Positions 35,221 to 55,278 of a stretch of 64,000 nt of DNA are shown here, piece by piece. This DNA is from Euglena gracilis (taxonomy: Eukaryota), in contig CP154954.1 of NCBI GenBank assembly GCA_039621445.1, positions 45,611,847 to 45,675,846 on the forward strand. Direction: 5' to 3'. The notes below the pieces were generated by a model. The model did not search any database. It was not told the origin of the DNA and was given only the letters and a program-made list of their open reading frames with translations. The position numbers and the translations under genes are program-made. Within the stretch, counting starts at the first letter, position 1. Every line of letters starts with the position of its first letter.

Positions 35221-35989
35221 AAAAATACACCCAACCGAAGTGCGACGCCCGAGCGGTCATGCACTACGGGAGCCTTTAGGGAGCCAGGGGGAAATGACCA
35301 GGAGGGCGACGCACAATGGCAGGGTGAGACCGCCCGCCCGCTGGAGGGGAAAAAACCATTCGAGTTCAAAAAGCCGCACCAGACGCCGGGAGGGGAGCAC
35401 GACCGCCATCTCCGGCAACAAACGCGCAGTAAGAAGCACCGCGCCAAAGAACACACCATGAACAAACAGCCGGCACAAATAAGCAGGATCTCACCCTGCC
35501 CTTGTGCTTCGTCCTCCTGGTCATTTCCTCCTGGTTCCCTAAAGGTCCTCGGAGTGCACGAGTTTTCCGCTCATTGGTCGCAAATCGTACTCCCTCGAGG
35601 CAAGCCGAAAAGGGAGGAAGGGACACCGAGGGCGAAGCACAAAGACATTGTGAGGCCATGCCTTGCTCGCCGGCGGTTTGTTGTGTGATTGTTTGATGTG
35701 CTGGGTTAGGAGGCCCCGCTTAGTGCCGCCTCGCCGGAGTTGGCTGCATTGTCTCCGACGTGGCGACCATGGCGCTGCTTCTTTGCTTTGGGGGGCCCCC
35801 CAACCTCCCCCCCCCTGGCCCCCATCTTCTGATCGAGGGCGTTTGAAGACAAATTTTCTTACATGGGTGGGGGGGTCGGGCTCACAATGTCTTTGTGCTT
35901 CGCCCTCGGTGTCCCTTCCTCCCTTTTCGGCTTGCCTCGAGAGAGTACGAGACACCTCGGGCTCTGCACTTTGCCATTGTGAGGCCAGA

Positions 35990-38321
35990 TTGTGCACTGA
36001 AAAAAGGGGGGCCAGGGCATTCTGCAAAGAACCTTGGGCACCAAGTCTTTGATAGTGGGCTGTGAAAGCCTCCACCCCCTTCCATTGACCAATTTCACAA
36101 ACTTCTTGGGCAGAAAGGCCCAATTTTTTGAGTAAACTAACTCCTGCTCCTCTGGTGGAGTGGGTCCCCAAACCTGGGGGGGTACCCCATGCTGGGCCAA
36201 AAAGTTTTTGGTTATAGAAGCAATGGTATCTGCCTTTATGGCTTTATAGGGGGGTTTTAACGTAATTAAAACGGGGCCCCCAGGTTTCACAAAGAAACGT
36301 GTTGCTGCCACATAAGACATCATCAACTGAAAGGGACTGATTTGGGGGCATTGGGGAATGGAGACAACTCTCTCCCACTTATGGAATTTTTGCCCTTTAC
36401 GCTTAATTTTGATGTAGGGTGCCCCCCCCCAACACACTGGTGGTTCTTTGGACCTGTGCCAAATCAGAACTTCTGTATAAACAGAGGATACGTGAACAGA
36501 AAATGAGTTGTGTACGTAATGTACACATATCAGAGGGCAGGGGGGACTGTGCCAGCCCCAGGAGGATTGGGAGGGGTTCCCAGAATGCACCATATTTTTC
36601 CAGGTTTTGGTTCCAAAGCCTTTTATAAGGTGCCAACATGGCATGGAACTTCAGGCCTCCAAAGCCAGGGATCAAAAGCACAGCACTGTATGCATTGCGT
36701 GCCTGGGCCTTTGAAAATTGAAACAGTTGAACTAAAGCGTCAACCACTTGGTCAGTGGTGGCTTCAGGGGGGGGGGGGTACCCCCATTTTGTCCAAAATT
36801 ACCCATAAAAGCGTAAAAGCGCTTTGATAGCGCTTTAAACTGTTTCTTCCCAAGAAATCGTTAATGGTCGAATTTTGTACTTGCTTCCCCTCCACAAGTT
36901 GCCTGAGCAAATCATGCAAAGGAGGGGGCACCTGGGGGGTGGCATTTTTCCCCCTGCAGTTGGTGAACATACCCTTGTAGGGGGTGAGTTTGGGGCAGGG
37001 TGTCCCTGTAACTTTCATTTTTATTAACTGGGGCCACCATGTGGCTGAATCCCAGTAGGAGGTGACCATCAAAACTTTGGCCTGTGGAAACATTTTTAAT
37101 CTGGGGAGAAATTTTTGAATTACAGACCAGGGGGGTTTGCATAAAGTCCCCCCATGTTGTCCAGTGGGCATTGCAATGCGTCCACTGCTGTGGCATCCCA
37201 GTGGGGCCACCTGGCCACAAATTGTGGTAGTTTTTTGTTGCCTGGTGAGGGAATAAAGGTCTGTTTTTAGGCTGATGTAATTTTAGAACTGCTGCCTCAG
37301 CCATTGAAAAAGTTGGGGGTCCAGGGAGTAATCCCCCCTGTCCATTTCCCTCCTGCTTATGGGGTCCGCCAGGCATTCCTTTGAAGGGACCAACTTTACT
37401 TGCAGGTTTATGTTGTGCTCCATGCACCATTTGAAAAAGGGTCTTAGCATGGAATTGAAGGGGTCCTTTCTGCCCCCCCCCTTTTGTTAAGTAATAGTAA
37501 ATTACTTGATTGTCCACTGACAGGGACACAGTTTCTCCTGGTTTGCTTAGGCTTTGTACTGTGCTTATTGCTGCACTTAGTCCTTTGACATTTATGTGCA
37601 AAATGGAGTTTTCCCTCCAAAATTCTTGCACAATTTCGCCTGTTCGAATGTCCAGCCCCCCCCCATGCATGGGTACTGCTGTCTGAGTGCAACTCCCTGG
37701 TTGCAATTTGGGGGAAGGGTCTGCCCCCCCAGGAGTCCAGTAGATTTTTTTTCTCTTAATTGGTCTTTTATTCTTTGGGAAATGGGGTGTTTTGAGTCCC
37801 AGGGGGCTGTGAAATTTTCCACCAAAAAAATTGCGAGGGAATCCGTAAAGGCCCTTAGAAAGGGCAGTGCCATTAGATTGCATCTGATTTGGCCCAAAAT
37901 GGAAGCCAACTGCCTTTTTGACATGTAATCTTTTTTCACCATTTTTCCCAGCTCCTTTTTTACTGTTTTTATTTTCTGCGGGGCACCTGCAATTTTCCCT
38001 CTTGGAAGTTTAATTGAAACCCAAGAAGATTTACGATTTGGGTTGGCTGCAGGGTGGACTTTTTTACATTGATTTTGAATCCTGATTTGATTAAATCCCT
38101 GACCACTGTGTTCAGGTGATTTTGTAACATATTGTGTGTTGTGGCTACCAGTAAAATGTCGTCCAGGTAAATAAATACCTGGATGCCCCTTTTTCTCCAC
38201 AGCTTTTCGAATGTCTTCATTATTGACATAAAAATTTGGGGCATTACGTTCAGGCCAAAACAGCCTGCCTGCAATTCCCAGGTCTGCCCCCCCCCACCTG
38301 ATGTCTTAGAAATGGCCTTAG
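35990..38321 (-). pseudogene. DIRS-B1 RT C-part / RNase H / MTase / tyrosine recombinase (frameshifted)
   Basis: IYLDD, SDSSTHAWGG, LYRSSDL, HSTRG and AHYQR are spread over several frames. Confidence 0.9.
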
Positions 38322-38750
38322 TGTGTACCAGGCACGTCCCAGCTCTGTAGGATATCTGCAGAGTGGGTTCTGTGACGGTCGCACCACTGTGGAAACCCAC
38401 AGCTGGTAAGATCGTGGCAGACCCTTCTGGGATCTGCCCCTGGACACGTCAGCACTTTTCTCTCCTTCCCCCACAGGTGGTATTCTTTACTCTCACAATC
38501 TCCAAGTTTCACCTTTGGATTTGTCAGAGGGAAAAACCCTCAGAACAATCAACTTTGATCTCAGAAGAAAACTTCTGAATCTTTGCTTTGTGCTTTGCCT
38601 CTTGGGGAATTGGGAAGAAAAGGGGAAAACCACTTTTCGTTACTCCAAAGACTTTTCCCTACCATAAGTAGGCTGCGCACCAAGGCGAAAGCGAAAGGCT
38701 TTTACAGAAAGTCCCAAAAAGGGAAAAAGGGAAAGCTTTGGACGTACACT
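38322..38750 (+). repeat. 5' LTR
   Basis: TGTGTACC...GGACGTACACT; no differences from 54850-55278 seen by eye. Confidence 0.97.
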
Positions 38751-38950
38751 TGGTAGCAGAATAGGTCAAAGATCCTACAGAAAGAAAGGCTACCAGGTAA
38801 TACACTTGGTAGCAGAATAGGTCAAAGATCCTACAGAAAGAAAGGCTACCAGGTAATACACTTGGTAGCAGAATAGGTCAAAGATCCTACAGAAAGAAAG
38901 GCTACCAGGTAATACACTTGGTAGCAGATTTAGGCAACGATCCTATACAG
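38745..38950 (+). repeat. 56-bp tandem array, each unit containing a primer-binding site (tRNA-iMet type)
   Basis: TGGTAGCAGA occurs at 38751, 38807, 38863 and 38919 (three identical units plus a diverged fourth). It is complementary to the ...TCTGCTACCA 3' end known for many eukaryotic initiator tRNAs. Confidence 0.9.
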
Positions 38951-39172
38951 ACGTTCCACACAGAGAACCTCTGTGGTTGACTGGTGGTGAGGATCGTACT
39001 GAGCCGTGAAACACGGTGAAAGTACTGTTCCTGGCCCCTAGCCAACCTTTAAGCAAGGATACAGGTCTCAGAAGGCTCTGTTCGGTAATCGCCGATACAA
39101 CCTTTCTGGTCCCTGTTTCTCTGCTTATTTGTGTGAATTTTTGGGTTTTTGCCTTTTTACCCATCTCAAAAG

Positions 39173-42100
39173 ATGCAGAGCACAAGCCCCAACCCCAAAT
39201 TTGATTATGACTTGTTGATGAGTTCATTGAGCAATTGTGATGAAGATTGCGGGGATTGGAACGGTTTGAATGAAACAAGTTCCAATTCCCGACCCCCCAA
39301 GCAAGAAGAAGGCAATTTGACTCATTTGTCATTGTCAAAAGGCGAAACGCCTTTATCATTGCATGGGGGTAATGAACCCTCTTCATCATCTTTGTCATTG
39401 ATTGTCCGGGATGTAGGTGGCAAAATGCCTTCCTCCATCCCGATTCACCCATCATTGATGCGGCGAGGGGATGAACCCCTTGCTACCCCACACTTGGTTA
39501 CTCATGTTACCCATGAACAAAGTGAGGGGTATTTGCCCTTTGCTCTGTTCACACCCAAAAGATCCCCGGTGGAAGCACCGGTGGGCCTTTTGGAGTGCAA
39601 CTCGGTGGAAACACCGTGTTTTTTCCAACCCCCCCCTCAATTACCACCCCCCACACCATTTCACGCTTTGCCGGGATTACCCGCGGAAGCTGCGGTTTTC
39701 CCTGCATTGCCATGGAACCCAGATATGCGTCTGGTGGTGCCGGAAATCTCTGGTGCCGTTTCTATTGTGGAGGACTATGAGGAAGATTTGAGGGATAACC
39801 TCACCCCCGGTGATGTTTTCCGAATTCTCGGTCAACTTCCAGCGGATCACCCGCTTAGCAAGCAAATTTTGCATGTCCACCAATGCGTTGCGGAATGCGC
39901 AACCATGCTCAACAAAGTTTTGCAGTTCGATGAGGACAATCAAAGGGTTGTCAACACCAAACTGGAATGTTGCTGGAATTATTTGCAGGAAATCGGCAAA
40001 TATTGCCAACACAATTTTGAAAATGCGGGGAAAGACCTTCAGCATTTTCGAGAAAGTGTTGACAGTATTTTGCGCATCCAACTTCCACAAAATTTCCAAC
40101 AAATCAGCGAAATGCTGCATGAAGCGGAAACGCGGAATGATTCCAAGTTTCTGCATGTGCAGGATGGTATGAGCCATCTTTTTGCCCAATTGGAGTCCTG
40201 TTCAACCATGTTACTGCAATTGCAGCAGCAGTTACAAGCGCAAAATGCCACCCCCAAAATGCCGGAAATCGGTAACTTTGTCGCGGTTGAGCATTTTGCC
40301 ACACTTACCACTTCTTTCCAAGAAGCGCAACAACGGATTTTGCATCTTGGCTCGGAAATCGAGCACTTGAAGCAATTTCAAGCGAAAGTGCAAGAAAATT
40401 TTGTTCCCCGTTCGCAAATCCAACTTTTGGAGGAACGAATTTTACACTTGGAGCAAAAATCCTGCCATTGTGCCGCAAATCAGGATGGATTAACCACCTT
40501 GAACGCGAAAATCGCAGATTGCGCACAACGGTTGGATTTTACGCAACAACAAATGCAAACGGACATTGGCGGTATTAATGCCACCGTTGTCGGTTTGCAG
40601 GAGCATGTTTTCGCACTTTCCAAGCGAATTCCCGACATTAGTGGTATTCAAGCCGCTATTGGGGAATTGCAAACCCGTTGCACCTTGTTGTCTACCACAG
40701 TGACGGAAATCCGCTCACTACCCCCCATTTCGCGTGCTCGGATATCCGAGTCACCGGAATTTCGCTCATTTTATGACAAAGTGCTTGGTGACAACAAGGA
40801 AACCTTGCAAGCATTTTGTACAAGTTTGCTCCAAATCGAGGAAAGCGTGAATCGGAATGCCCGATCCATGCAAGATGAGGTTTCTCGGTTGGATGGACGA
40901 ATTTCTGCGTTGTTGGAAAAGCCAACCGCGGAAAATTCGCGCACCACCGTGGAAACCCCCACAAAGTCACTCCACCAATTGCAAACCGTCTCAAATGCGG
41001 TAAAAAGCGCTTGCGGGTCAACTCCGGAATGTGGAGGAGTCCCAAGGAAATCTTGCCCAAGAATTACAATTGGTTTCTGAAAAGATGCCACACTTGGAAG
41101 ATTTTTCCCGTTACCGCAAACGCGTTAGGCATTTGGAGACTGAGGTTGACCGTATTTGCGGCCAACTCCAGTTGGTGGAACATTTGGAAGAAACGGTGCA
41201 TGACTTGTCCGCGAGTCTGGATAAAATGTCCACTCCGGTACCGGTTGTGCCACCATCCACCGCGGTAAGCGCTGCGGTTGGTATTCCAAATGTCCCGGAA
41301 TCGCGTTCTCAAATTACCATTTCTGGAGTAGGAATCCCTACATCCACTGCGAATTTGGTACAACCACCCGCGAAAACGCGAATTGTACCACCTTTGCATT
41401 TGCCAACACCACAAACACACTCTTCGCACGACATTTCCGATGAGGAAATTGGCCCCCCACTCGAAAATTCGAGTCTCCACCAAGAAATTCAACATTCCAA
41501 CCTTGTACGAGGTATGTGCCAACACCCCACACCTGGTATTGGTCATGTGTCGCATTCGCGATCATACCAACAACCGACGGGTTCTGGAATGCCAGACCAC
41601 CCATCGGATTTTCGGCGGGAAACCCGCCCCACTGGGGGAATTTCACCACATTTTCCGCGTTTCCCGCAGGAAAATCCTGCCAACCTTACACTTGGTGCGG
41701 GAAATCCTGCACGGGTTACACATGGAGCGGAAAATCCGCGAAACGCGTTTGGTGTTAAGAATTACCCTGACCCAAACCCCTGGAATACCACCGAGGGTCA
41801 GCGGGTTACTCAGAGAGACTTCAAGGGCACCATCGCAATCGCGAACAAGGTGAAACCCCAATGGGACGGGGATCCAACCACATGGAGACAATTTTTTCGG
41901 GATTGGGAGTACTATTGGGCACTAAAAGGACCCACCCAAGACCCGAATCCCGAGGTAGTCAAGATGGAATTCATCGATTGCCTACCGAGGGAGGAGCGAG
42001 AACGCGCACGCAATTTGGTGATACGTAATGGCGTATCATTCGATGACCTGGTTGAGCAATACGCTTCAACCAATTCAAGTCTGGTCACCAGGATTACCCT

Positions 42101-43250
42101 GGAGAAGAAGTGGCGACAAAGCGCGCCATCGGATCGCAAATGGAAATCCATTGACCTTTGGTATGCCAAATGGTTAGCACTTGCTTCCGAAGTTGATGAA
42201 CTTAGCGAGAAGCAAATGCGTGAACAATTCGATGCGGTTTTGTTGCATTTCACACCATCCCTCGTGAAGGATATCCATCGCGAGGAGTTGGCAGGGCATG
42301 AGATGACTCTTGCCCAACGTTGGAATTATGTGTCAAAGCAACTCAAGCTCACACAAGTTTTGGGACAAATACAGTCCGCTTTCCAAATGCATCCCACCGC
42401 GGGAATCCCTGCGGGTGCGGTTAATGCACTACAAAAATCACCCATGTCACCAAGATCACCCACCACGGGACCGAAAACGCGGAATCAGCGTTCTTCGGAC
42501 CAGGGCACGGATAAACTGTGCTTTTTGTGCAACAAATCTGGTCACATGTCTCGGGAATGCCCGAATCCCGATGCGCGAAAGCGTATTGGAAGCCCAAGGG
42601 GCTCGACCTCCTCACGGGGATCGGGTTCCTCGGCGTTTTCACGTCAATCGGCAGTTTCACGGTCTTCGGAGAACCGCTTTAGCGGTAGTAGGCCCAAGTC
42701 ACCATCGCGTGATGGTCGGGAAACCCGTCCTTCTCGCGGTCGGTCACCTGGCCCCCCTGCCCGAAAACGGGATTTCAACCGCGATTCTTCACGATCTCGT
42801 TCGCGAAGTGGATCATCCTCTTCACGCGAGTCAACGGGGAAGTCCCGATACACCGGTCATGGTCGACGGGAAACCCGTTCACCACGACGGTTTGACGGAA
42901 AAACGGAATACCGTTCCCCCCGTTATGCGGAATCCCGCCACAAATCCCGTTGTTCACTTTGCGGTTCCAAAGATCACCACGCATCCAAATGTCCCAGATC
43001 TCGTTCCCCCCGGCCCGGCTACGGAAATCGCGGTAAGCGCCGCGATGACCGTGGTTACTCCTCCAACCGGCAAAAGGTCGGTTTCAAGATATCTTGTTTG
43101 GAGGAGGACACCCCGGCTTCGGGCAGGGAGGGGGATGAGACCTCGGACGGGGAATTTAATGAGGCCCGAATGGCGGTGCGCTCATTGAATTCCATCTATT
43201 CCACCAAAAAGTCCGTTGCCGGCTATGCGGCCGGTTCGGACTTGGAGTAG
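39173..43250 (+). CDS. Gag-like polyprotein with long coiled-coil N-terminus (one +1 frame change at ~41002-41006)
   Basis: ORF 39149-41080 (ATG at 39173; heptad-rich) joins ORF 41031-43250 if one A of GTAAAAAGCG is skipped. It contains a capsid-like WDGDPTTWRQFFRDW segment, two CCHC knuckles (CFLCNKSGHMSREC, CSLCGSKDHHASKC) and an RS-rich linker. Confidence 0.85.
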
Positions 43251-43286
43251 GGGAGCCCGAGGTCCGAGGGCACGGACCTCTGGGCT
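43248..43286 (+). promoter_or_regulatory. Putative stop-codon readthrough signal (UAG-G plus 13-bp hairpin)
   Basis: The gag TAG is in frame with pol. AGCCCGAGGTCCG (43254-43266) pairs with CGGACCTC-T-GGGCT (43273-43286). Confidence 0.7.
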
Positions 43287-43295
43287 GATGAACAG

Positions 43296-46200
43296 ATGGA
43301 GGTAAGACCTGATCAACCTTACCCCCCCTGCCCATCCGCCTTCACGGTCAGTACCCGGAATTATTTCGGGTCCCCTACCCCCCACTCCACATTTCCGCTC
43401 GGAATGCTGAGCAAAGTGGGAAAGGGTTCATGGGAGAGCTGGCATGCAAACGTATTTCCGCCAGACCCTTCACTTTGCGTACCACCAATGGAATTACTCG
43501 TCCAAGCGGAAATCCGCATCCAAAATTTCTCCACTAAAGTTAAAATTCTCATTGACACTGGTTGTCGCATTGCACTGCTCTTTCGGTTGGGGTTGATACC
43601 GACCCCGCTCTTGGTAAGCGCCAAGAAACCGATCAAAATTACAACCGCGGATAACACCCCCATGTGTGGTGGTGATTTGGGATGTGTGCTCGAGATACTC
43701 TTGCCCATCATTCCGAAGCATCACTCACAACCCCCACAAGTACAACATTTCACCAATATTTGGGGTTACGAGTCCGGAATTCACGGGTCTGACGTAATTT
43801 TGGGATACCCATTTTTACGCCAGTACCGATTGGTTGTGGATTGCCACTCCCACGGTTTGCGCACAGCACCCACCACTTCATTGACACCCAAACCACCATC
43901 ACCGTTGTCATCCACTATGATGACCACCGCTTTGCCCACACCGTTACCCACAATGGCAACACCGTTACCCACCACACCAACAACCGTTTTCCACACCCGG
44001 GGTACGGAGAAAGCCTCCCCCCTGCCCAATGACACACCAACATGCGTTCCACATGAGGCAGGGCAAGCGAGTAGCGGTACCCCCACCGTTCCACTGGGTT
44101 ACAAGACGAAAGCCCAAAGGCCTGAAGTAATTACGGTGTCGAGTAGTCGCCCAGCTACACCACCACTCCGTTTCCCACCAGTTGTGCCGAATCCAGGCAC
44201 ACCTGTACAAGACTCACCGGCTAATGCCATCGACACCCACTTTCACGCACACCCGTCACACCATCACACTTCCTTCCAATGTGTGCACTGCAGGAGAATT
44301 TCCACCCAATCGGATTTCGATTGTGGATGTTTAGTTCAAAATCCGACACTAATCGCAATTCCGAAAACGGAATCCACCACCCATGATACACTTGGTTGTA
44401 GCCCGCAATGCGCGGAGATACACCGAGTACTCCAACAACGCGGATTAGCCTCGTTGTTCGGAACCGCGAAAAGCGCGATTCCTAATTACAATCGCGATCA
44501 CCCTTGGTACGGATTTGATGCGGAATGGGGAAACCCCCAACCTGTCCAAACTCCCTTGGGATCAACCCTTGTGGTAGTGGAAGACAGCCCGCATGTTTGT
44601 GGATCCATTCATTGTGTTTCTACCCTTCAACCCGAAAATCGGGTGCATGAATACGCGAAACGCGTATGGAATGCTTTCAATTTTGGTCAATATCGCATTT
44701 TGGAACGATGGTTTTCCAAAATCGCGACATTGGCAAATTCTTTTGATTTGGCATTGGAAATCGATGCCTTTTCATCCAATGCACATGCCCGTTTGCCACG
44801 TCATTGGTCACAACACTCCAACGCATTTGATAAATTTTGGGGTGATACGGTGTTATGGATGCACCCTCCCCCAAAACTTATCGAATGTGCGGTTGAGAAA
44901 ATTCTGCGGGATGAAGCCCGTGGAGTTATTCTCATACCCATCATTCCGGAAGCGGAATGGTTCACACAACTATCGTATGTATGTTTTCATTGGTGGGATT
45001 TACCCACTAATGTACCGATTTTTGAGGATTTTTGTGGTAAAATATTACCACCCTTGCAAGAAATCATTTTTCGCGTATGTTTCTTCGATGCATTCGGAAT
45101 GTCCGAATTCGCGGTGCCGAGGAAGCTCGGTAGCCCCAGGGATACCCTGGCGGTTTCCGCAGTCATCGAGAGTGCAGGTCAGCATCCTAAGTCAGCCGAA
45201 TTCTGTTCGCGGATTACCCGCGAATTCCACGGTGTGCTGGAAAATCCAGTATACGCGTGCGACATCGACCCCGCGATACGCGGTCCGTTCGGTGTTTGTA
45301 AGATCGAGCTTAAGGATGGAGCAAAGCCAATGCACCGGAAATTTTTTCGTTGTTCGGGAGAACGCGAACAAGCTCTCAATGAAATGATTGAGAAGCTTAT
45401 TCAGCGCAAGTGGATTGTACCCTCGAAAAGCGAGTGGACATCCCAGGCATTTGTTGTTCCTAAACCCCCAGACCCCTCAGGTCAGAAGAAATGGAGGCTG
45501 GTGCTGGATTACCGGTACCTGAACTCCCAAACAAGGGATGATCCCTTCCCGCTCCCCCTGATCGAGGATTTGATCACCAAACAATCGGAAAACCGGTTGT
45601 GGTCAATTTTCGATCTGGAGGACGGTTTTCACCAAATGCACTTACACCCTGACTCCCAACCATACACGGCATTCGTGACATCCAAGGGTGTGTACCAATG
45701 GACGGTACTCCCCATGGGTGTTAAGAATGGCCCAGCCATGTTTCAGCGCATGATACAATGGGTTCTACGCGATTTACCGTTTGCCATTGTGTACATTGAT
45801 GATGTGCTGGTGGGAACACCACCACCATCCGCACAATCGAGCGAGGATATCCTCGTCACACACTTCCACCATGTTTGCGCGGTATTAACCGCTTTTCAAA
45901 AACATGTGCTTTTCGCGAAAGGCGCGAAAATGCATTTGTTTCGGATTATTATAAAATTTTGCGGCGACATCCTCAGCAATGGACAGCGGAAAGCCGCTCC
46001 GAGTAAACTCGAAGCCATTAAGAAATGGACCCCTGAGGTAATCAAAACGATTACTCACCTCAAAGGATTTTTGGGATTAGCCCAATACTACGCGATTTAT
46101 ATGAAGGACTTCGCGAAAATCGCGGTGCCCCTCACCAAGCAGCTCAAAAACCGGGCTGTTGACAACACCAAAGTCATTTGGGATGACCAAATGCGCGAGG

Positions 46201-48350
46201 CCCTTGAGAAAATCAAGGTTTTGCTTTTGGAGAATGTTGTCCTCGAAATCGCGGACCCGTACAAACCATACGTGTTGGAAGTCGACAGCAGCGATTACGC
46301 TGTTGGCGGAGTTCTTAGCCAGCATAATGCGGCGAATGAGCTCCGACCTGTGGCTTTCTTCAGCAGAAAGTTACAGGGCGACGATGGAAAAGGTCAAGTC
46401 AAATGGAGTATACGCGAGAAGGAAACCTACGCAATCGTGCTTATACTCCAGAAATTCCGAAGCTGGGTAGCCAGCAGCCTCGTCCAGATCCTCGTCAAGA
46501 CCGACCATGAGAGTCTCCAACACTGGTACACCGAGGATTTGAACAAGGCCATGTCATCGGTCGGAAGGCGATGCAGATGGCATGAGTTCTTGAGTCAATT
46601 CAACCTTGTGGTTATCTATACCCCTGGTCACACACAAAAAGTAGCGGATCCGCTCAGTCGGGCCCCTTGGTATTACCCTGGGAACCCGGATGAGGGAGAC
46701 GCGACTTTTCATGGAAGTCAGGAAGCTGACGACTACGCACGTCGAAACGACGCTGCGGATAATCTTTTGGATTCTTTTCCCGTTTCACAACTATTCCTGG
46801 TCGCACCAGTGCGAGGAAGGCGCCGACGTGGAAGCACGTCCGGGCCCCGGCGTATTACGCGCACGGAGTCCCCTTCTCCACTGTTCTTTCGCGAATGGGA
46901 TTATAGTCGTGACCCGGTGTATGACACCATTGTCACCAGACTTCGTAATGGCGAAGTGCTGGACAATTACACTCTTTCACCTTTACGGTTGGTTTTTCGC
47001 AATGAATCGGGTTACAAATATTGTATCCCCCAGGACCTGGTTGATGATGTGATTTTGTGTTATCACAACCATGGTCACCCTGGGGCCCCCAAACTTCTTT
47101 CGTTGGTGGGCCGCAGGTACTGTACAACCCTGAGCGAGAAAGAGCTTTACTCACGCTGTTTGCGAATAGCGCAACGGTGTCAAATTTGTCAAGCGGTAAA
47201 ACCCCGCAGAGGTACCCCCCCTGGTACGATGGACTTTTTCCCCGTACCCCCTGACATTTTTACATCCCTCTGCATGGATTTTCTGGAATTAGAACCGTGC
47301 AAAGGAACAGACGACAAAATTTACGATTACGTTTTTGTTGTCGTCTGCAGGCTGAGTGGGTACATTGTAGCCATTCCATGCCAGAAGTCAGGGTTGACTG
47401 CCCAAAGTTTGGCAACTATATTTTTGGAGAAATGTATTTGCTTGATGGGTTTACCGAATGAAATCGTGAGTGATCAAGACCATTTGATTTCTTCAAGGTT
47501 TTTCACCACTTTGTGCGGTTTACTCGGAATCGAGCAACATTTTTCCATTATATACCGACCCAAAGGCAATGGTAGAGCCGAGGCAGCCGTGAAATCCGTC
47601 GTGAATATGCTTCGCCTTTCACTGGCTGACTCGCGCAGCAACTGGATATCAGTTCTACCATGGTCTTTGTTTTATATCAATACCCTACCAGGGTTGGTTT
47701 TACCTCACTCCCCCTATAAATTAGTTTTCGGACGGGACCCTCCGGCCATAGGGGATGTCCCTTCGGAGAGACCCGCCCGAACGAGTGTCAGTTGCGAGAC
47801 CTGGTTTGCGGAAGTAGAAAATCTACGTTCTGCAGTCCAGAAGCGCGTCACTGATATTCATGCAGCAAAACGGAAATCGTTTTTGCAGAATTTCAAGTCA
47901 CCTGTTTACAGTCCCGGTGACCGCGTGTGGGTACGGAATAGCCGTACTCGCATGCAGTCTTCCAAGCTGGACCCCCTCTGGCTCGGCCCCTGTGAAATCC
48001 TAGAAAGACTAGGTACCAGCGGGCGTTACAAGGTTGCATTACCGAATGGTGTTGAGGACGTTCATATGGACGACTTCAAACCATACCTGTCGCCACCGGA
48101 TGGGAAACCCATCCCGTGTTTGCACTTCAAACCCCGTTCCAGATTACCTGAGACGGACGACTTTGTAGTCGATAAAATTATCGATCACAAAATCGACAAA
48201 GGTATGCACCTTTGGAAGGTCCGCTGGAAAGGGTATGGGCCCGAGGAGGACACTTGGGAGCCAGCAACCAGTTTTGTTGGGTATGTCCAGCAAGATTGGA
48301 AGCTGTGGAACAAGAAACATAACATTGATGTTTCCATGACAAGTTTTTGA
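43296..48350 (+). CDS. pol: Pol polyprotein: protease - Dam-like adenine MTase - RT - RNase H - integrase - chromodomain
   Basis: ILIDTGC/VILGYPFL; IDAFSS...WMHPPP; LVLDYRYLN, PMGVKNGP, YIDD; VDSSDYAVG, EKE, TDH, ADPLSR; HNHGH..CQIC, MDF, SDQD, NGRAE; WLGPCEI; FVVDKIIDHK...WKVRWKGYGPEEDTWEP. The ORF is uninterrupted for 1,684 aa. Confidence 0.97.
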   Translation: MEVRPDQPYPPCPSAFTVSTRNYFGSPTPHSTFPLGMLSKVGKGSWESWHANVFPPDPSLCVPPMELLVQAEIRIQNFSTKVKILIDTGCRIALLFRLGLIPTPLLVSAKKPIKITTADNTPMCGGDLGCVLEILLPIIPKHHSQPPQVQHFTNIWGYESGIHGSDVILGYPFLRQYRLVVDCHSHGLRTAPTTSLTPKPPSPLSSTMMTTALPTPLPTMATPLPTTPTTVFHTRGTEKASPLPNDTPTCVPHEAGQASSGTPTVPLGYKTKAQRPEVITVSSSRPATPPLRFPPVVPNPGTPVQDSPANAIDTHFHAHPSHHHTSFQCVHCRRISTQSDFDCGCLVQNPTLIAIPKTESTTHDTLGCSPQCAEIHRVLQQRGLASLFGTAKSAIPNYNRDHPWYGFDAEWGNPQPVQTPLGSTLVVVEDSPHVCGSIHCVSTLQPENRVHEYAKRVWNAFNFGQYRILERWFSKIATLANSFDLALEIDAFSSNAHARLPRHWSQHSNAFDKFWGDTVLWMHPPPKLIECAVEKILRDEARGVILIPIIPEAEWFTQLSYVCFHWWDLPTNVPIFEDFCGKILPPLQEIIFRVCFFDAFGMSEFAVPRKLGSPRDTLAVSAVIESAGQHPKSAEFCSRITREFHGVLENPVYACDIDPAIRGPFGVCKIELKDGAKPMHRKFFRCSGEREQALNEMIEKLIQRKWIVPSKSEWTSQAFVVPKPPDPSGQKKWRLVLDYRYLNSQTRDDPFPLPLIEDLITKQSENRLWSIFDLEDGFHQMHLHPDSQPYTAFVTSKGVYQWTVLPMGVKNGPAMFQRMIQWVLRDLPFAIVYIDDVLVGTPPPSAQSSEDILVTHFHHVCAVLTAFQKHVLFAKGAKMHLFRIIIKFCGDILSNGQRKAAPSKLEAIKKWTPEVIKTITHLKGFLGLAQYYAIYMKDFAKIAVPLTKQLKNRAVDNTKVIWDDQMREALEKIKVLLLENVVLEIADPYKPYVLEVDSSDYAVGGVLSQHNAANELRPVAFFSRKLQGDDGKGQVKWSIREKETYAIVLILQKFRSWVASSLVQILVKTDHESLQHWYTEDLNKAMSSVGRRCRWHEFLSQFNLVVIYTPGHTQKVADPLSRAPWYYPGNPDEGDATFHGSQEADDYARRNDAADNLLDSFPVSQLFLVAPVRGRRRRGSTSGPRRITRTESPSPLFFREWDYSRDPVYDTIVTRLRNGEVLDNYTLSPLRLVFRNESGYKYCIPQDLVDDVILCYHNHGHPGAPKLLSLVGRRYCTTLSEKELYSRCLRIAQRCQICQAVKPRRGTPPGTMDFFPVPPDIFTSLCMDFLELEPCKGTDDKIYDYVFVVVCRLSGYIVAIPCQKSGLTAQSLATIFLEKCICLMGLPNEIVSDQDHLISSRFFTTLCGLLGIEQHFSIIYRPKGNGRAEAAVKSVVNMLRLSLADSRSNWISVLPWSLFYINTLPGLVLPHSPYKLVFGRDPPAIGDVPSERPARTSVSCETWFAEVENLRSAVQKRVTDIHAAKRKSFLQNFKSPVYSPGDRVWVRNSRTRMQSSKLDPLWLGPCEILERLGTSGRYKVALPNGVEDVHMDDFKPYLSPPDGKPIPCLHFKPRSRLPETDDFVVDKIIDHKIDKGMHLWKVRWKGYGPEEDTWEPATSFVGYVQQDWKLWNKKHNIDVSMTSF

Positions 48351-48512
48351 GAACGCATGGGAAACCCATGTTGTTTTCTCTTCTTTTTATCATTGATTCT
48401 TATCATTCTTTCTTTCCGCAGACTTTTTACCAAATAATACTCAAGCGGTTACCCTCACACACCTTACAACCAACAACCCAAACATCCCACCGTACCGACC
48501 CCGGGCTGTATC

Positions 48513-51500
48513 ATGCTGCCCGGCGGAAGGGAGCCAGGCGGAGGACCGCCTTACCACCCCACCACTCACCCTCAACCTGACCAGTATGCGTACCGATACG
48601 GTACGCAGCCACCTGCACGGACTGCGGCTCAGGGAAACCCTGAAGCCAGCAGCAGTAGCAGGATGACCCAGATGCCCGCGGAAGCGCGGCCATCTCAGCC
48701 ATCAGGCTCTCGTCGCCTCCCACCGTATGCGGGTGTGATGATCCACCGCACGGCGGAGACGATGAACCGGGTTATGCGTATGAGCGCAAACCCGGCACCA
48801 GACCAACTCACACAGGCATTGTGGGATGACCACTGCCGTAAAGTTTTGACCATCGCGAATACCCCTCCAGCCCTGTGGTGTATGTGCGCCCAGGCGACGA
48901 TGACCGGTCTGGTGTATTACACCGACCCGGACGCGTCGGGTTTCGCGGCAGACATTACCATGCGTGACCTGGGCGTGGAAGTCCCGCCACAGGTCGCCAG
49001 GCAGGTACCACCTGTTGGCACTTACACTGCACATTTTCGTGCTCACTCCCCCGGATTACCCGAGGAAGAGACGGTGGAAGCACCTGTCCGGAGTGAACAC
49101 CCACGTGTAAAAGAAAGTATTTTTCGATCCCCTGAGCGCGTGCCCCGGCGGGATTATCCTGCGCAGGAGCCTGTGTCTCAGTATACCGTCTCTGGGGATT
49201 ACCCCCAGCAGGCGCCAATGCCACGGGATCAGTACGTATATCCACCTCAACCCCACCCAACCATACCTGACCCTATCCCACGACGTCCTGCGGAGGGAAA
49301 TCCTCCCCCGACGTCTGACTCTGCCCGAAGCGCTCGTCCGCGGGAAGCCGCGACAGCGCCTCGTGCGGCACCAGTTCCCCCGGCACGGGATGAACCCGTT
49401 AACCCGTGGACTGGTCGGCCGTTCGAGACTGAGGAGGACCGTCAACAGTATGAATATGCTGTGACGATCCAACGACAAATCGCACGTCGCCCCCCTGTTT
49501 CCGCTGGCCAGGGATACCCTGCCCGGGCGGAAATGACACGGGAAGAGCGCCAGCAGTATGATGCTGCTGTGTCGGCTCTCACAGGAGTCCCAGCTCCATC
49601 ACGGTCAAGTCAACCAGCGCAACAGCGGGACGTGGCTGTGGCGGAAGCGCCACCAGCACGACCCACAAGCTCTGCCGCCGGCAAACGTGACCGCGGCCCG
49701 GAAAATCTGACGCCGCAGCCACAACGCCGCTCGCCGAGGTCGGAAAATCCGCCCGCGGCGATGCGCGTCGACGCTGAGGAGGAAGCTCCGCCAGCGCCCG
49801 ACGTGACGGCAGAACGGGCACGTCGGGAAACCCGACCATCCCCAGTCGCACCGGTTTACTCGAATCGTGGTGATGCTGAGCAGGAATTTGCTCGAACACC
49901 AAGCACGGAATCCGTGACTTATCCTGTGTATACAGAAGAAGACCCAGAATACTGGGAATATTGGGACCCATATCGGGCGACGATAGAATGGCTGTCCAAC
50001 ACGAAGGGCAAGGGTAAAGGAAAAGGCAAGGGTAAGGGTAAAGGTAAAGGCCAGGAGAAAGGTGGGAAAGCCCCATCTGGGAAAGGCGGAAAACCCGCTG
50101 GACCACCTCCAGGCAAAGGCGGAAAATCTGCCGGACCCCCAGCAGGAAAAGGCGGAAAAGCCGCCGAACCTTCGAAAACGAAGGATTACGACGCTGACCA
50201 GCTGTTCGATTACTTGGATGAAATCTGGCCGAAAATCGACCAGGATCTCGAAAAGTACACGCGTGCTGGCAACGTGATCCACCGACCACCGGAAGCGGTG
50301 CTCGCAGTGGTGCAGGATCGTATGCACGATCACTGCAAACGATTCATCTACAGTACCGAACTTCATCCGTTTGAGGGATACCCTCATTCGGATGAAATGG
50401 TCCTGGACCAGATGTCTGGTTTCTGGGAACTCTGGTTCTGGTTGGGATATCCCTGCCAGAACTTTGGCATTTTCACCGACCGAAACGGTCTGACATACAT
50501 CGATTGTTTGAACACATGTGAAGACGATGAAACATTCGTAGCACAGTTGAAGGAAATCTTCAACCACATGTATTCCGTCAGCGCACTGGGAATCCAGTGG
50601 AAATATTACCCCCTGCCGGAGAAACTCCAGGCGCAGGCTGCGGTAATGTTCACAAACAACCTCCAAGTATTCTTGGACAGCATGTATGGCATGCTGTTCA
50701 AGGTACTGGACGTGGACCTCGCCTACCCTCAACGATACAAACTGGAATGCCGGTTTTGCAAGGAAGTCCACATTGTTGACTTCTGGGGTTTCGGGGAGCG
50801 CGGAAAACCGCCTCCGACTGCCGAGAATGCCGGCAGCCCACCGACCAGGAGATTCCTCCTGCACCAGTGCCGGAAACCCCAGATCGGAACGCAAGACCGG
50901 AAGGTGCTGAAACAGCACCGGCAGAAAATATTTCTGCTCCAACAATACTGGCACAGGGCGTGGATTACCTACGTCCTGGAAGTATATATATATTTCCTGG
51001 AACAGATGACCACCGATGTGGATATCCACAGGAAGTGGATACCTCGGGGATACACCGAGGTAGATGCCAGACCGTATGATCCAGACCGACGCAGGATAAA
51101 CCTGCGGCCGGACTGGACGGGGGCAGAAATCGGCCTCCGGGAACACCTGCAGAGCCAGTTCGGGGAAATCCTGGACTGGCAGGAGTTCGAAGTGTTCTTC
51201 GCTCCCCGCGAGCTAACCCAACCTCGCTACGCAGTACCACTGCCAGCTTTCCTGGAAGAAACGGGGGAGAGTACGGTATGGGTGAGACTCGTCGATCGCA
51301 GTGGGAAGACCTCTGCCTGATCAACGAGGATGAGCCTCAACCTCCACCCGGAAGCTGGGTGCGAGCGTCGTGGCCACCTCCATACCCCAACTCTGACAGG
51401 AGTGAAAGTATTAGCTTTTTCCGCCTGTCAAATGCCCAAGGGTGCTACAGAAGCAGGGAAGACCCGCGTTCTGCAGCCCAACTACACACAGAGGAGTCCC

Positions 51501-53956
51501 CTCTGGAAGCGGAGGAGACAGGAGAAGCGGTCCCAATGGCCGAGGATGAACCTCAGCCTGCGGAACCCCCGGCACGGGAAACCCGTAGCCCGTCGGTCGT
51601 GATGCTGGACACTGTGGCGGAAACCGCCCAGCGCCCAGGATCACCGAGAGGTGAACTGACGCCTGTCCCACTGTCACCATCCTCGCTGGGTACGCCTGGC
51701 GGACCGACCCCTCCGCGGGAAAACCCGCCGGAGACGGTAACCCCTACGCCTGAGGTATTACGCCTCAAGCTTCCTGTCCCCGGGGAAATCCCGACGACAG
51801 AGGAGCCAGTGGAGGAGCCCACTTCAGGGGAAGGACCTGAACGGCGCCCCTCACTGGGCGGACGTGTACTCGGCGGTTTGCGATCACTGATCGCAGTTGT
51901 CACCCCACGTGGCACTGCGGCTAGTTCTTCCACTGCTGTGGCGGAAACGGCCCAGCCAGCGGACGAAACAACTGAAGCTGCAGCCATGGAGGAGGATGAA
52001 CCTCCCCCAATGGCCGCGCCACCGCCGGTGTCGGAAACGACACGGACGGAGGGCGAACCAACGGCAATGTCAGTGGTGACAACGCTACCCGTGCCAGTGC
52101 AGGATGAACCTGCATCAGCACCGGTAGCGACATCAGAGGCACGGGATGAGCCCGTAGCTCCACACACATCGGCCACTGCACCGAAGCGTGCGGACACACG
52201 GACACCGGCACCTGAAAAACAGGCTGCACGGACATCCATGCCCCCACCACAGACTCAGCCAACGCGGTGCAGCGGCGACGCCCACAAACACACCGTACCC
52301 CAAGCCTGCTCCTGGGAAACCCACGAGCGCAGCGAAAGAACGCGTAGGGCGACCCTCAGCTCGGGAAACCCCTGCTGAAGGTCAACGACGCTCGGTGTCG
52401 GGGAAAAGACCCCCGGCCCAGCCGTCACCACGCACCTGGTCAAGCAAGCGTGACGCCGAACGGCGACCCTCGGATGCTCCGGAAAGCGGAAGTCCGAAGG
52501 CCCCGGCCAAATCAAAGCCCGGTGCCGCGCCTTGCAAACCCTCACCTAAGACAGGTGATCAGCCCCCACCGAAAGGCGGTGGTGGTGCTGGAGGCCAGGG
52601 TGCATCTTCTTCTCGAGGATCAGCCTCGGGAGGAGGATTCACACAGGTCACATCATCCGGCTATGGAAAACCTCACAGCCGAAACCACCTACGAAGGGGC
52701 AGGGAAAATCCCGCGCCTCTACGACTACGACACCTTCGGAAGGCGAAGTTGTCATCGACTGGAATGCGATGACTCAGGATGATCCTGAGACTCATGACCT
52801 GAAAAACAGGTACATGATGATCGAACACAAGCTGCGAACAGACCAATGCCTCAATCGGTGGATTGAACCACTGTTCTGTCAAGGACGGAAATGGTCCTTT
52901 GACCAGAATGTCACCTGGAATTATTACAATTCCAGATCACCACGTGTTTTGGCCCAATACTTTGGCGAGGAATTCCTCGTCGACAGAACATCGGAAAACC
53001 GATTTGTGTGGCTTTGCACTGTTTGCCACAGGATGTACAACAGTGCCCCTGACTTGGGATTACCCCTCGTCCATGTGTGCAACCCTGTGGAGCGGAAATC
53101 GTTCCACAAGGATATGTACATACCCAACTGTGCCGCCTTGGTATGCGCCAAGTGCGTGGACAGTTGGACCCACAAGCACAATTTTAGCTACACGGACCGA
53201 GATGGTACGAATGTACCAGTACTCTGCGTCAACTGCCTGCGAGGTACCTTCTGGCACACTGCGGAAGGCGCAGTTCGCACAATCGTGCCGAGTGCCGAGA
53301 AGCCACTGGAGGAATACTCCACCTTGAACAAAAAGTTCAAGGACTTCTTCAAGTATGCCAACCTCAAGCTGGACGACTACCGCCACACGGGAATGGCCCG
53401 TGGGTGGCAGATCGACAGTGGGGCGATACGCCTCGCTGCTGAGGAGGCAGGGGTAAGATTACCTTACCTCTGGGAGACAGCAGACAGGGAAAAGATACTT
53501 TTCCGCCTGTTCACAACCCAGGACCGAAACGGTCGCTGGTGCCTACCACAATGGCCGCCCGAAAAACACGGGATGACCTGGAAGGACTGGCTAGGGGCCG
53601 TATTGCGACCCCATACCGTCCGGGCGGAATGCGCCTATCACGTTCCCATTGACTTCCACCCGGGGAATGCCCCGCAGGTGTCAGCCAACCACCCTCGGAG
53701 AAACTACTTCATCTGGCCAGCGACTTTGCCCAGGAAATTCTGGGAGAAGCTGCAGTGGTTTCTCGCGGAAAGAGCGAGTGCCACCAAGCAGACAGTACCC
53801 GAAGGATGGGTTCGGGACTGGATCGCACCTGATTTCGACTATGACTCGCCAGAAACCTGGCTTGTCGACAGGCCACAGCCACCACAATTCCAGATGGTCC
53901 TTGTGGAAGATCCCTTGGACTCCCGCCATGACTATTGGCGGCTGGAGCGGATGTAA
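48513..53956 (+). CDS. Additional ORF3 region of the LTR element (935-aa ORF plus downstream frames; possibly one ~1,800-aa protein), function unknown
   Basis: ORFs 48513-51320, 51278-52378, 52188-52772, ~52670-52740 and 52742/52769-53956 overlap end to end. They contain Pro/Glu-rich linkers, a (KG)n/GKGGK tract, two globular regions and a Cys-rich CxxC cluster. No signal peptide or TM helix was seen. Confidence 0.75.
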
Positions 53957-54849: not shown

Positions 54850-55278
54850 TGTGTACCAGGCACGTCCCAGCTCTGTAGGATATCTGCAGAGTGGGTTCTG
54901 TGACGGTCGCACCACTGTGGAAACCCACAGCTGGTAAGATCGTGGCAGACCCTTCTGGGATCTGCCCCTGGACACGTCAGCACTTTTCTCTCCTTCCCCC
55001 ACAGGTGGTATTCTTTACTCTCACAATCTCCAAGTTTCACCTTTGGATTTGTCAGAGGGAAAAACCCTCAGAACAATCAACTTTGATCTCAGAAGAAAAC
55101 TTCTGAATCTTTGCTTTGTGCTTTGCCTCTTGGGGAATTGGGAAGAAAAGGGGAAAACCACTTTTCGTTACTCCAAAGACTTTTCCCTACCATAAGTAGG
55201 CTGCGCACCAAGGCGAAAGCGAAAGGCTTTTACAGAAAGTCCCAAAAAGGGAAAAAGGGAAAGCTTTGGACGTACACT
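54850..55278 (+). repeat. 3' LTR
   Basis: Direct repeat of 38322-38750, followed by TSD CTTAG. Confidence 0.97.

What the first reader, a model, noticed from the sequence alone, without database searches (positions are those of the whole stretch)
43248..43298. Gag-pol joined by an in-frame UAG followed by a strong hairpin: gammaretrovirus-like readthrough
Seen: the gag stop TAG (43248-43250) is followed by 15 sense codons in frame with the pol ATG, in a UAG-G context, with a 13-bp GC-rich stem starting 3 nt downstream. Established: UAG-G plus a 3' structure drives gag-pol readthrough in MuLV, whereas most Ty3/Gypsy elements use frameshifting or a single ORF. Inference: programmed readthrough giving a ~3,000-aa Gag-Pol.
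Basis: partly seen in the sequence, partly recalled or inferred. Interest (0 to 1): 0.75.

Follow-up and report, generated by a model that had tools for sequence, protein, structure and literature searches.

The report
In-frame gag-UAG-pol junction with hairpin
A giant, recently inserted jumping gene of a Euglena-type alga separates its coat gene from its enzyme gene by one conserved stop codon followed by the strongest RNA hairpin of the element, a layout that most likely lets a few ribosomes read on, a known retrovirus trick not yet tested here.

Summary
TAG 43248-50 ends gag. Fifteen sense codons follow in frame up to ATG 43296, the context is UAG-G, and a 13-bp bulged hairpin lies at 43254-86. 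The hairpin beat all 200 shuffles (z -3.82). It ties for the most stable 40-nt fold on the element's + strand.

Relatives could be obtained only as proteins.
- 10 of 12 gag C-termini stop at the homologous position.
- One decayed copy has W at the stop, then the same 6-codon linker in frame.
- The conserved motif GTDLWAD lies upstream of ATG 43296, so that ATG is not the family's native pol start.

Readthrough is the best reading (about 0.55). One result weakens it: 17 relatives' pol ORFs are called from a start-like codon just before GTDLWAD. It is V (read as GTG) in both literal records, and GAG here. Stop-restart therefore stays open (about 0.2).

No DNA of relatives could be fetched, so covariation of the stem is untested.

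The scan noted a similar layout earlier in another Euglena family (e1-7359746). It also flagged readthrough in a probable sister copy (e1-7362676).

Verdict: a new member of a known kind, of moderate interest.

The parts
38322..38750 (+). 5' LTR (429 bp)
   Evidence: It is 100% identical to 54850-55278. It is flanked by CTTAG at 38317-38321.
54850..55278 (+). 3' LTR (429 bp). It is followed by the second copy of the 5-bp target duplication, CTTAG, at 55279-55283.
39173..41080 (+). ORF1, the N-terminal coiled-coil part of Gag. In this copy it is in another frame than the CCHC part.
   Evidence: The first ATG in the frame is at 39173.
41002..41006 (+). A5 run. Other copies have A4, which joins ORF1 and the CCHC part into one 1,358-aa Gag ORF.
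   Evidence: table 4: one letter is left out at 41002 in 178,746 of 344,868 depth units in X1 (27 contigs). It is also left out in all covering contigs of X16 (2 contigs) and X17 (1 contig). Sequence; lengths.
41004..43247 (+). C-terminal part of gag, with two CCHC zinc knuckles, an RS-rich tract, the conserved motif ASGREGD and the end ...SDLE.
   Evidence: Pfam zf-CCHC E 1.5e-6. Alignment of gag C-termini.
43248..43250 (+). gag stop codon TAG, in UAG-G context. It is the only TAG among the six long-ORF stops of the element.
43251..43295 (+). 15 sense codons between the TAG and the first ATG. The first 6 are the linker GSPRSE; the rest are GTDLWADEQ.
43254..43286 (+). Hairpin. Lower stem 43254-58 with 43282-86 (5 bp), bulged U at 43281, upper stem 43259-66 with 43273-80 (8 bp), loop 43267-72.
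43266..43268 (+). Codon 107 of the search query. It is GAG (Glu) here. In 17 relatives the pol ORF is called from a start-like codon at this position (written M or V).
43269..43289 (+). Codons for the conserved motif GTDLWAD. They overlap the hairpin loop and its 3' arm.
   Evidence: Conservation island. N-termini.
43296..43298 (+). First ATG of the pol frame in this copy. It lies downstream of the conserved motif and is T in the closest relative, P0008.
43251..48350 (+). pol frame (1,699 codons). It holds protease (LIDTGC), a Cys-rich plus Dam-like insert, RT, RNase H, integrase and a chromodomain.
   Evidence: Pfam hits. Translation.

Best explanation
The junction is a programmed stop-codon readthrough site of a giant Ty3/Gypsy chromovirus-type LTR retrotransposon (38322-55278) in a Euglena-type genome.

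Proposed mechanism:
- Most ribosomes terminate at UAG 43248 and make Gag.
- A minority insert an amino acid at UAG-G and continue in frame through the 6-codon linker and the conserved GTDLWAD motif into protease-RT-RNase H-integrase. This gives a Gag-Pol of about 3,058 aa in copies with the A4 run.
- The 3' hairpin is the stimulator. When the stop codon is in the A site, the 5-bp lower stem should already be inside the mRNA channel, and the 8-bp G+C-rich upper stem, 8 nt from the stop, should sit at the channel entrance.

Shown: the layout, the stability of the hairpin, conservation of the stop position, the in-frame linker in a second lineage, and a conserved coding or RNA island upstream of the only ATG.

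Inferred: that readthrough happens at all, its level, and the role of the hairpin.
For: 1. In-frame TAG-G, then 15 open codons, then a pol frame open for 1,699 codons.
2. The stop position is conserved. Of 12 relatives' gag C-termini, 10 end at the homologous [ST][DE]x[ED] position. These were all 11 hits with a query start below 101 among the 150 listed of 171, plus P0156. One (P0025, a copy with a broken protease) has W there. One (P0046) is another-frame reading of near-identical DNA.
3. P0025 shows the same architecture in frame: SDFE-W-GRPGSL-GTDLRAD against SDLE-*-GSPRSE-GTDLWAD here. It is about 45% identical overall.
4. The conserved motif lies between the TAG and ATG 43296. In this copy it can be translated only by ribosomes coming through the stop, because codon 107 is GAG.
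5. Residues 107-114 form a conservation island: mean pairwise identity is about 0.67, against 0.05-0.35 for most of the next 40 residues. The island coincides with the loop and 3' arm. W112 is replaced by R in 4 of 19 sequences, a radical change that by codon logic alters only the bulged U 43281.
6. The hairpin beat all 200 shuffles (z -3.82). It ties for the strongest 40-nt fold on the element's + strand, 2 clusters among 16,918 windows.
7. The 8-nt distance from the stop to the upper stem matches the 7-9-nt spacers reported for MuLV, alphaviruses and tobraviruses, and UAG-G is the type III context (Firth et al. 2011, PMC3159437, passages read).
8. No insertion or deletion at 5% share or more is listed between 42952 and 43342 in four runs (table 4, 9 rows).
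9. The LTRs are 100% identical, so the copy is young and the TAG is unlikely to be decay.
Against: - No nucleotide sequence of any other copy or relative was obtained. The identity of the stop, the frame in most lineages and covariation of the 13 pairs are therefore all untested.
- 17 relatives' pol ORFs are called from a start-like codon at position 107, and two more from M at 109. A plain readthrough model does not need a conserved NUG 7 codons after the stop. It fits stop-restart better.
- The three lineages without a start-like codon at 107 (this copy, P0017, P0074) each have an ATG-type start 2 to 9 codons further on.
- The stem base starts 3 nt after the stop, not 8, and no pseudoknot is supported.
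- The sequences used for the conservation island were picked because they contain the motif.
- This copy as assembled has a frameshift in gag (the A5 run), so ribosomes starting at ATG 39173 would not reach this stop in this copy.
- The table of other letters showed only 40 of 702 differences, so variants at the TAG are not excluded.
- There are no transcript-end, ribosome or peptide data.
Confidence: 0.55

Rival explanations
1. Termination-reinitiation (stop-restart). Ribosomes terminate at the gag UAG, and a fraction restart at a conserved NUG codon 18 nt downstream. That codon sits at the top of the hairpin. In this copy the restart would be at ATG 43296. Pol would be made unfused from Gag. 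The hairpin would hold or reposition the post-termination ribosome.
For: - 17 relatives' pol ORFs begin at exactly the codon before GTDLWAD. A given codon is ATG, GTG or TTG about 5% of the time by chance.
- The lineages lacking it have a start-type codon close by: M at 109 in P0017 and P0074, and ATG 43296, which is codon 116, here. The closest relative, P0008, has V at 107 and T at 116.
- Restart sites near a stop, helped by nearby structure, are known for some viruses and non-LTR retrotransposons. This point is recalled. TART-B1, with a start 37 nt after the gag stop, is mentioned in PMC5009743 (passage read).
Against: - Both records that translate start codons literally (JGI/IMG) show V, read here as GTG. 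All eight M records looked up come from ENA, where alternative starts may be written M. A conserved AUG is therefore not shown, and GUG is a poor initiator.
- Gene callers can only start an ORF at ATG, GTG or TTG, which biases what is seen.
- NUG at this position would also add a U-A pair to the stem (inference).
- In this young copy the codon is GAG, and ATG 43296 would skip the conserved motif.
- The in-frame, same-length linker in P0025 is not required by this model.
- No motif complementary to 18S rRNA was tested.
Confidence: 0.2
2. Pol is translated from its own mRNA, for example one made by spliced-leader trans-splicing or by an internal start just upstream of the conserved motif. The stop is then an ordinary gene end.
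For: - The genome is of a Euglena type (earlier notes), and such organisms trans-splice many mRNAs (abstract of PMC11170887 in the listing).
- Relatives have a start-like codon at the head of the pol ORF.
- A pyrimidine-rich stretch ending in AG lies near 43190-43213 (by eye).
Against: - No loose end resembling an added leader near 43200-43296 is among the 24 rows shown, table 7. This is weak, because 1,241 rows were not shown and all runs were contigs.
- After a junction near 43213, the first ATG (43225) is out of frame.
- This model explains neither the conserved frame nor the hairpin.
Confidence: 0.08
3. The hairpin serves another purpose, or none, and merely lies next to an ordinary gag stop. 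Possible purposes are an RNA packaging or dimerisation signal, or a protein-binding site. How Pol is made is then unrelated to the hairpin.
For: - All 13 pairs are Watson-Crick, so the fold does not tell RNA from DNA or one strand from the other.
- One other equally stable hairpin exists in the element, at 48961.
- No covariation data exist.
Against: - The strongest local fold of 17 kb falls within 10 nt of the one in-frame stop. By my estimate this is about a 1 in 1,000 coincidence.
- The coding island over its 3' arm is conserved in relatives.
Confidence: 0.1
4. Splicing removes the stop. This could be a Euglena nonconventional intron built on the hairpin, or a GT-AG intron from 43247 to 43351 (105 nt, in frame).
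For: - Artificial 50-bp nonconventional introns with paired ends are spliced in Euglena (PMC12501133, section 10, read).
- GA|GTAGGG at 43247 and a pyrimidine tract plus CAG| at 43349-43351 would keep the frame (by eye).
Against: - The code needs CAG 3 nt inside the 5' border, CTG 5 nt before the 3' border, and a following purine.
- The 3' arm has CTG at 43280-82, but the paired 5' position reads CCG with no A. The implied 34-nt excision would neither remove the TAG nor keep the frame.
- The GT-AG version would delete the conserved GTDLWAD motif, and its donor is poor.
- No such joint is listed for the three RNA-type runs (table 5; 109 joints were not shown).
Confidence: 0.03

Closest known systems
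Murine leukaemia virus (gammaretrovirus) gag-pol readthrough signal, type III (UAG-G plus 3' structure)
   Same: Gag and pol are in one frame, separated by a single UAG followed by G. A stable G+C-rich structure has its main helix 8 nt after the stop, and the product would be a Gag-Pol fusion. The MuLV features come from passages of PMC3159437 and PMC5009743.
   Different: This is a simple bulged hairpin whose base starts 3 nt after the stop, not a demonstrated compact H-type pseudoknot. The element is a Ty3/Gypsy chromovirus-type retrotransposon of a euglenid, not a retrovirus. Relatives carry a start-like codon 7 codons after the stop. Nothing has been measured.
Extended 3' stem-loop readthrough stimulators of alphaviruses, tobraviruses, furoviruses and others (Firth et al. 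2011, PMC3159437)
   Same: A stem of about 11-12 or more bp lies after a 7-9-nt spacer, in VEEV with a 1-nt bulge. Conservation is enhanced in the coding sequence just 3' of the stop. The protein-level island seen here is analogous.
   Different: Those cases mostly use UGA-C contexts and have long loops of about 100 nt. Here the stop is UAG-G and the hairpin is compact, with a 6-nt loop.
LTR retrotransposons with an in-frame stop between gag and pol: fission-yeast Tj1/Tcry1 and Candida Tca2 (named in earlier scan notes), and Dictyostelium Skipper (recalled)
   Same: These are LTR retrotransposons with gag and pol in one frame, separated by one stop, and readthrough is inferred.
   Different: Those cases were not checked here. 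As named in the notes they have TGA stops. The host lineage differs, and none is a 17-kb element with a methylase-like insert.
Euglena DAM-LTR / EpiLTR retrotransposons (Fernandez-Moreno et al., bioRxiv 10.64898/2026.05.21.726589)
   Same: They are Ty3-like elements of Euglena carrying a Dam-like domain and a chromodomain. This element has a weak Dam hit, and its relative P0003 carries PF05869.
   Different: The preprint's main text has 0 occurrences of readthrough, read-through, frameshift, stop codon or gag. How gag and pol are joined is not treated there. Its supplements were not seen.
Stop-restart (termination-reinitiation) systems. Calicivirus TURBS and SART1 UAAUG are recalled. TART-B1, with a pol start 37 nt after the gag stop, is from a passage of PMC5009743.
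   Same: A start-like codon lies close behind the upstream stop in 17 relatives, and there is structure nearby.
   Different: This copy has GAG at that codon. The literal records show V (read as GTG), not ATG. No rRNA-complementary motif was tested. Such a system is not known to me for the gag-pol junction of an LTR retrotransposon (recalled).

Membership tests
MuLV-type (type III) readthrough cassette | A single in-frame UAG between gag and pol, followed by G | tested here: met
MuLV-type (type III) readthrough cassette | A compact H-type pseudoknot 8 nt 3' of the stop | tested here: inconclusive
   A bulged hairpin is strongly predicted, and its upper stem starts 8 nt after the stop. The only second-helix candidate is loop GGGCA with UGCCC at 43329-33 (by eye). 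It has no support from relatives, whose protein sequence is not conserved there.
MuLV-type (type III) readthrough cassette | The stop and the structure are conserved, with covariation, in related elements | tested here: inconclusive
   The stop position is kept in 10 of 12 gag C-termini, and the frame is kept in P0025. Nucleotide covariation cannot be tested because no DNA of relatives was found.
MuLV-type (type III) readthrough cassette | Measured readthrough giving a Gag-Pol fusion | not testable with these tools
   This needs reporters, ribosome profiling or junction peptides.
Ty3/Gypsy chromovirus-type LTR retrotransposon | LTRs with a target-site duplication, and PR-RT-RNase H-IN order with a C-terminal chromodomain | tested here: met
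   Identical 429-bp LTRs and the 5-bp duplication CTTAG. Pfam hits RVT_1, RT_RNaseH, rve, Integrase_H2C2 and Chromo (E 5.8e-10) in that order.
DAM-LTR retrotransposons (bioRxiv 10.64898/2026.05.21.726589) | A Dam-type adenine methyltransferase domain in the polyprotein | tested here: inconclusive
   Pfam Dam E 0.0016 at 18.6 bits, below the 28.1-bit cut-off. Relative P0003 has a precomputed PF05869 hit.
Termination-reinitiation cassette | A restart codon close to the stop | tested here: inconclusive
   17 relatives have a start-like codon 7 codons after the stop, and it is V in both literal records. This copy has GAG there and an ATG 16 codons after the stop.
Termination-reinitiation cassette | An upstream motif pairing with 18S rRNA | not tested
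Euglena nonconventional intron (PMC12501133) | CAG 3 nt inside the 5' border, CTG 5 nt before the 3' border, paired flanks, and a purine after the intron | tested here: not met
   CTG is present at 43280-82, but there is no CAG or CDG at the paired 5' position (CCG at 43257-59). The implied 34-nt excision keeps the TAG and breaks the frame.

The most novel reading that the evidence does not exclude
The family may use a conserved stop-restart cassette rather than, or as well as, readthrough. After terminating at the gag stop, ribosomes would reinitiate at an NUG codon presented at the top of the hairpin 18 nt downstream and make Pol unfused from Gag. To my knowledge (recalled, not searched specifically) this would be the first termination-reinitiation gag-pol junction in an LTR retrotransposon. 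It would also mean that Pol reaches the particle without a Gag fusion.
Probability: 0.2. Interest if true: 0.7.

Novelty: new member of a known kind. Interest (0 to 1): 0.45.

Why it matters
Gag-pol readthrough is textbook for gammaretroviruses but rare and mostly only inferred in LTR retrotransposons. I found no paper treating it in euglenids. One search found 13 papers holding Euglena, retrotransposon and readthrough; 10 were listed and none is on this by title or abstract. The DAM-LTR preprint has 0 mentions.

If confirmed, the finding would show three things:
- how a very abundant, methylase-carrying retrotransposon family of Euglena sets its Gag:Pol ratio;
- that hairpin-stimulated UAG-G readthrough extends to Euglenozoa;
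- a compact natural recoding element usable as a tool in Euglena.

The start-like codon after the stop makes this a clean test case for telling readthrough from stop-restart.

Tried and rejected
Sources of other copies and relatives
- No whole genome is held for this window.
- tblastn of ORF1, gag, pol and ORF4 against the window found only the element itself.
- DNA of relatives was sought in metagenome contigs, viral contigs and genome contigs. Pattern matches were found, but no relative was confirmed in any scan.
- The word-indexed protein searches gave only 4, 3 and 3 hits. In one search only the 8,000 candidates sharing most words were scored, out of more; I suspect the RS-rich gag tract drew many unrelated candidates.

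Read laying
- Four runs were laid, all as contigs. The stretch is very abundant in run X1 (52,628 pieces on 5 kb).
- Only 40 of 702 base differences, 15 of 124 joints and 24 of 1,265 loose ends were shown. The absence of a listed TAG variant, splice joint or added leader is therefore not evidence.
- One X16 contig is unlike the window before 43243 and like it after. Its 30 shown letters read ...ADSDME before the stop position. This is a weak hint of a diverged copy with the same gag end.

Other checks
- Rfam gave only a chance sub-threshold miRNA hit (E 0.36, 20.8 against 137 bits).
- A loop-downstream pseudoknot (43268-72 with 43329-33) and a long-range helix (43245-53 with 43380-87) remain unsupported, because the downstream partners lie where relatives are not conserved.
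- The nonconventional-intron and GT-AG intron readings were rejected (see the rivals).
- N-myristoylation of an MG... start was rejected by eye, because W occupies the position that should be small. The consensus used is recalled.
- More distant PR-containing ORFs with long N-terminal extensions showed no CCHC in the same ORF, so no fused gag-pol form was seen among the 12 inspected.
Full report
**What is there**

The finding lies inside a complete LTR retrotransposon at 38322-55278 (16,957 bp).
- Its two 429-bp LTRs are 100% identical and are flanked by a 5-bp duplication, CTTAG. The insertion is therefore young.
- Earlier notes of this scan place the genome in a Euglena-type alga.
- The internal region has these ORFs:
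  - ORF1 (39173-41080), predicted coiled coil;
  - a second gag part with two CCHC knuckles (41004-43247);
  - TAG at 43248-50;
  - a pol frame open from 43251 to 48350, holding protease, a Cys-rich and Dam-like insert, RT, RNase H, integrase and a chromodomain;
  - three further long ORFs without Pfam hits.
- This is the kind of element described as DAM-LTR in bioRxiv 10.64898/2026.05.21.726589. I saw that preprint's outline and searched its main text. It contains no occurrence of readthrough, read-through, frameshift, stop codon or gag. Its supplements were not seen.

**The observation**

- TAG 43248-50 followed by G;
- 15 sense codons in frame up to ATG 43296;
- a 13-bp stem (10 G-C pairs, one bulged U) at 43254-86.

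The hairpin is not a chance feature.
- 0 of 200 dinucleotide shuffles fold as well (z -3.82).
- Only 2 clusters among 16,918 40-nt windows of the element's + strand reach its energy.
- It persists with pair probabilities of about 0.9 or more in a 201-nt fold.
- The stem base is 3 nt from the stop, but the 8-bp upper stem starts 8 nt from it. That is the spacing reported for MuLV, alphavirus and tobravirus readthrough stimulators (PMC3159437, passages read).
- The gag stop is the only TAG among the element's six long-ORF stops.

**Evidence from relatives**

No genome is held, and five scans of DNA collections found no relative. Relatives were therefore available only as predicted proteins.

An exhaustive HMMER search with the junction read through gave 171 hits at E 0.001 or less, of which 150 were listed. 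Three results stand out.

1. Gag C-termini.
   - The set was all 11 listed hits that match the gag side, plus P0156, making 12.
   - Ten end at exactly the homologous [ST][DE]x[ED] position, at 33-70% identity.
   - P0046 is an alternative-frame reading of nearly the same DNA.
   - P0025 runs through with W at the stop position and then GRPGSL-GTDLRAD. That is the same 6-codon linker in the same frame. P0025 has a broken protease motif and is a decayed copy.
   - So the stop is ancestral and conserved, and the in-frame layout exists in a second, distant lineage.
2. The head of pol.
   - The start of pol is conserved as G-T-D-(L/P)-W-A-(D/E).
   - In this copy the motif lies upstream of ATG 43296, so that ATG is not the family's native pol start.
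   - Residues 107-114 form a conservation island: mean pairwise identity is about 0.67, against 0.05-0.35 for most of the following 40 residues, in 19 sequences.
   - The island lies over the loop and 3' arm of the hairpin.
   - The radical W-to-R change, seen in 4 of 19, would by codon logic alter only the bulged base.
   - Caveat: these 19 sequences were chosen because they contain the motif.
3. A result that cuts against simple readthrough.
   - In 17 relatives the pol ORF is called from a start-like codon immediately before the motif. A pattern scan of all 155 stored proteins found 15, and two variants were seen.
   - In P0017 and P0074 the ORF is called from M two codons later.
   - This copy has GAG at that codon.
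   - The two records from a source that translates literally show V, which I read as GTG. The eight M records looked up are all from ENA, where alternative starts may be written as M. A conserved AUG is therefore not established.
   - A conserved NUG is established. NUG would also add a U-A pair under a four-base loop (inference).

**Read laying**

- Four runs, all kept as contigs, show that the family is very abundant (52,628 pieces laid on 5 kb in X1).
- No insertion or deletion at 5% share or more is listed between 42952 and 43342 (table 4, 9 rows).
- Only 40 of 702 base differences were shown, so the TAG's variability among copies remains open.
- The same table shows that the A5 run at 41002-41006 is A4 in about half of the DNA depth and in all covering contigs of two other runs (X16, an RNA run by guess, and X17). 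With A4, ORF1 and the CCHC part form one 1,358-aa Gag, and readthrough would give 3,058 aa. As assembled, this copy carries a frameshift in gag.

**Mechanism**

The best-supported reading is programmed readthrough of UAG-G stimulated by the 3' hairpin, giving a Gag-Pol fusion. My confidence is about 0.55.

Shown:
- the layout;
- the exceptional stability of the hairpin;
- conservation of the stop;
- conservation of the frame in one further lineage;
- a conserved island upstream of the only ATG.

Inferred:
- that ribosomes read through;
- at what rate;
- that the hairpin drives it.

Rivals, with my confidence in each:
- stop-restart at the NUG codon, about 0.2;
- a separate pol mRNA, about 0.08;
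- a hairpin with an unrelated role, about 0.1;
- splicing that removes the stop, about 0.03. The published code for Euglena nonconventional introns (PMC12501133, section 10) is not met, and the possible GT-AG intron would delete the conserved motif.

**Comparison and novelty**

- The junction works most like the type III MuLV signal and like the stem-loop stimulators of Firth et al. 2011.
- It is not shown to be a member of the MuLV pseudoknot class, because no pseudoknot is supported.
- In-frame stops between gag and pol are known in a few LTR retrotransposons (earlier notes; not checked here).
- Within this scan, a similar gag-TGA-plus-hairpin layout was already noted in another Euglena family (e1-7359746). 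Readthrough was also flagged in a 16,958-letter element 125 kb away that is probably a sister copy (e1-7362676). These notes are leads, not support.
- I rate the finding a new member of a known kind, with interest 0.45.
- The open and testable question is whether the conserved NUG after the stop marks a restart site.

Noticed in passing
window 41002-41006: This is an A5 run. About half of the DNA-run depth and all covering contigs of X16 (RNA by guess) and X17 have one A fewer (table 4). With A4, ORF1 and the CCHC gag part fuse into one 1,358-aa Gag. This copy is therefore frameshifted in gag, or the assembly has a homopolymer error.
   Followed up: partly
window 38745-38945: Directly after the 5' LTR there are three to four tandem 56-bp units. 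Each repeats the last bases of the LTR plus the primer-binding-site-like TTGGTAGCAGAATAGG. The element thus carries several copies of its putative PBS.
   Followed up: no
window 44700-45000 (pol residues about 493-573): There is a weak Dam-like adenine methyltransferase hit between protease and RT (E 0.0016, below the cut-off). It is preceded by a conserved Cys-rich motif (QC..C.RIS....FDCGC). This fits the DAM-LTR elements of the 2026 preprint.
   Followed up: partly
window 48438-53956: Three long ORFs lie downstream of pol (960, 432 and 465 codons stop to stop). None has a Pfam hit. The first is in the pol frame but is separated from it by two stops.
   Followed up: no
window 43107-43127 (gag residues ASGREGD): A strongly conserved motif, (A/S)SGREGD(E/V), lies about 45 codons before the gag stop in an otherwise variable RS-rich tail. 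It is exact in 10 of the 13 aligned sequences, the window included, and degenerate in three (P0089, P0007, P0086). It could be a protease site, a peptide signal or a purine-rich RNA element tied to the junction.
   Followed up: no
window 35583-36954 and 58596-59972: Direct repeats of about 1.4 kb, 86-95% identical and 23.0 kb apart, bracket the element. It appears to be nested in an older repeat or element.
   Followed up: no
window 60466-62910 (- strand): A second, unrelated reverse-transcriptase ORF lies here (RVT_1 E 8.4e-23). It has no similarity to this element's pol in tblastn.
   Followed up: no
window 48961 (+ strand): This is the only other 40-nt window of the element that folds as stably as the junction hairpin. 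It lies inside the first post-pol ORF.
   Followed up: no
window 43245-43253 with 43380-43387: In a 201-nt fold, the stop codon and the GGG after it pair with CCCCACUC about 130 nt downstream. This encloses the hairpin in a larger domain, with pair probabilities of 0.44-0.9. The downstream partner lies where relatives are not conserved.
   Followed up: partly
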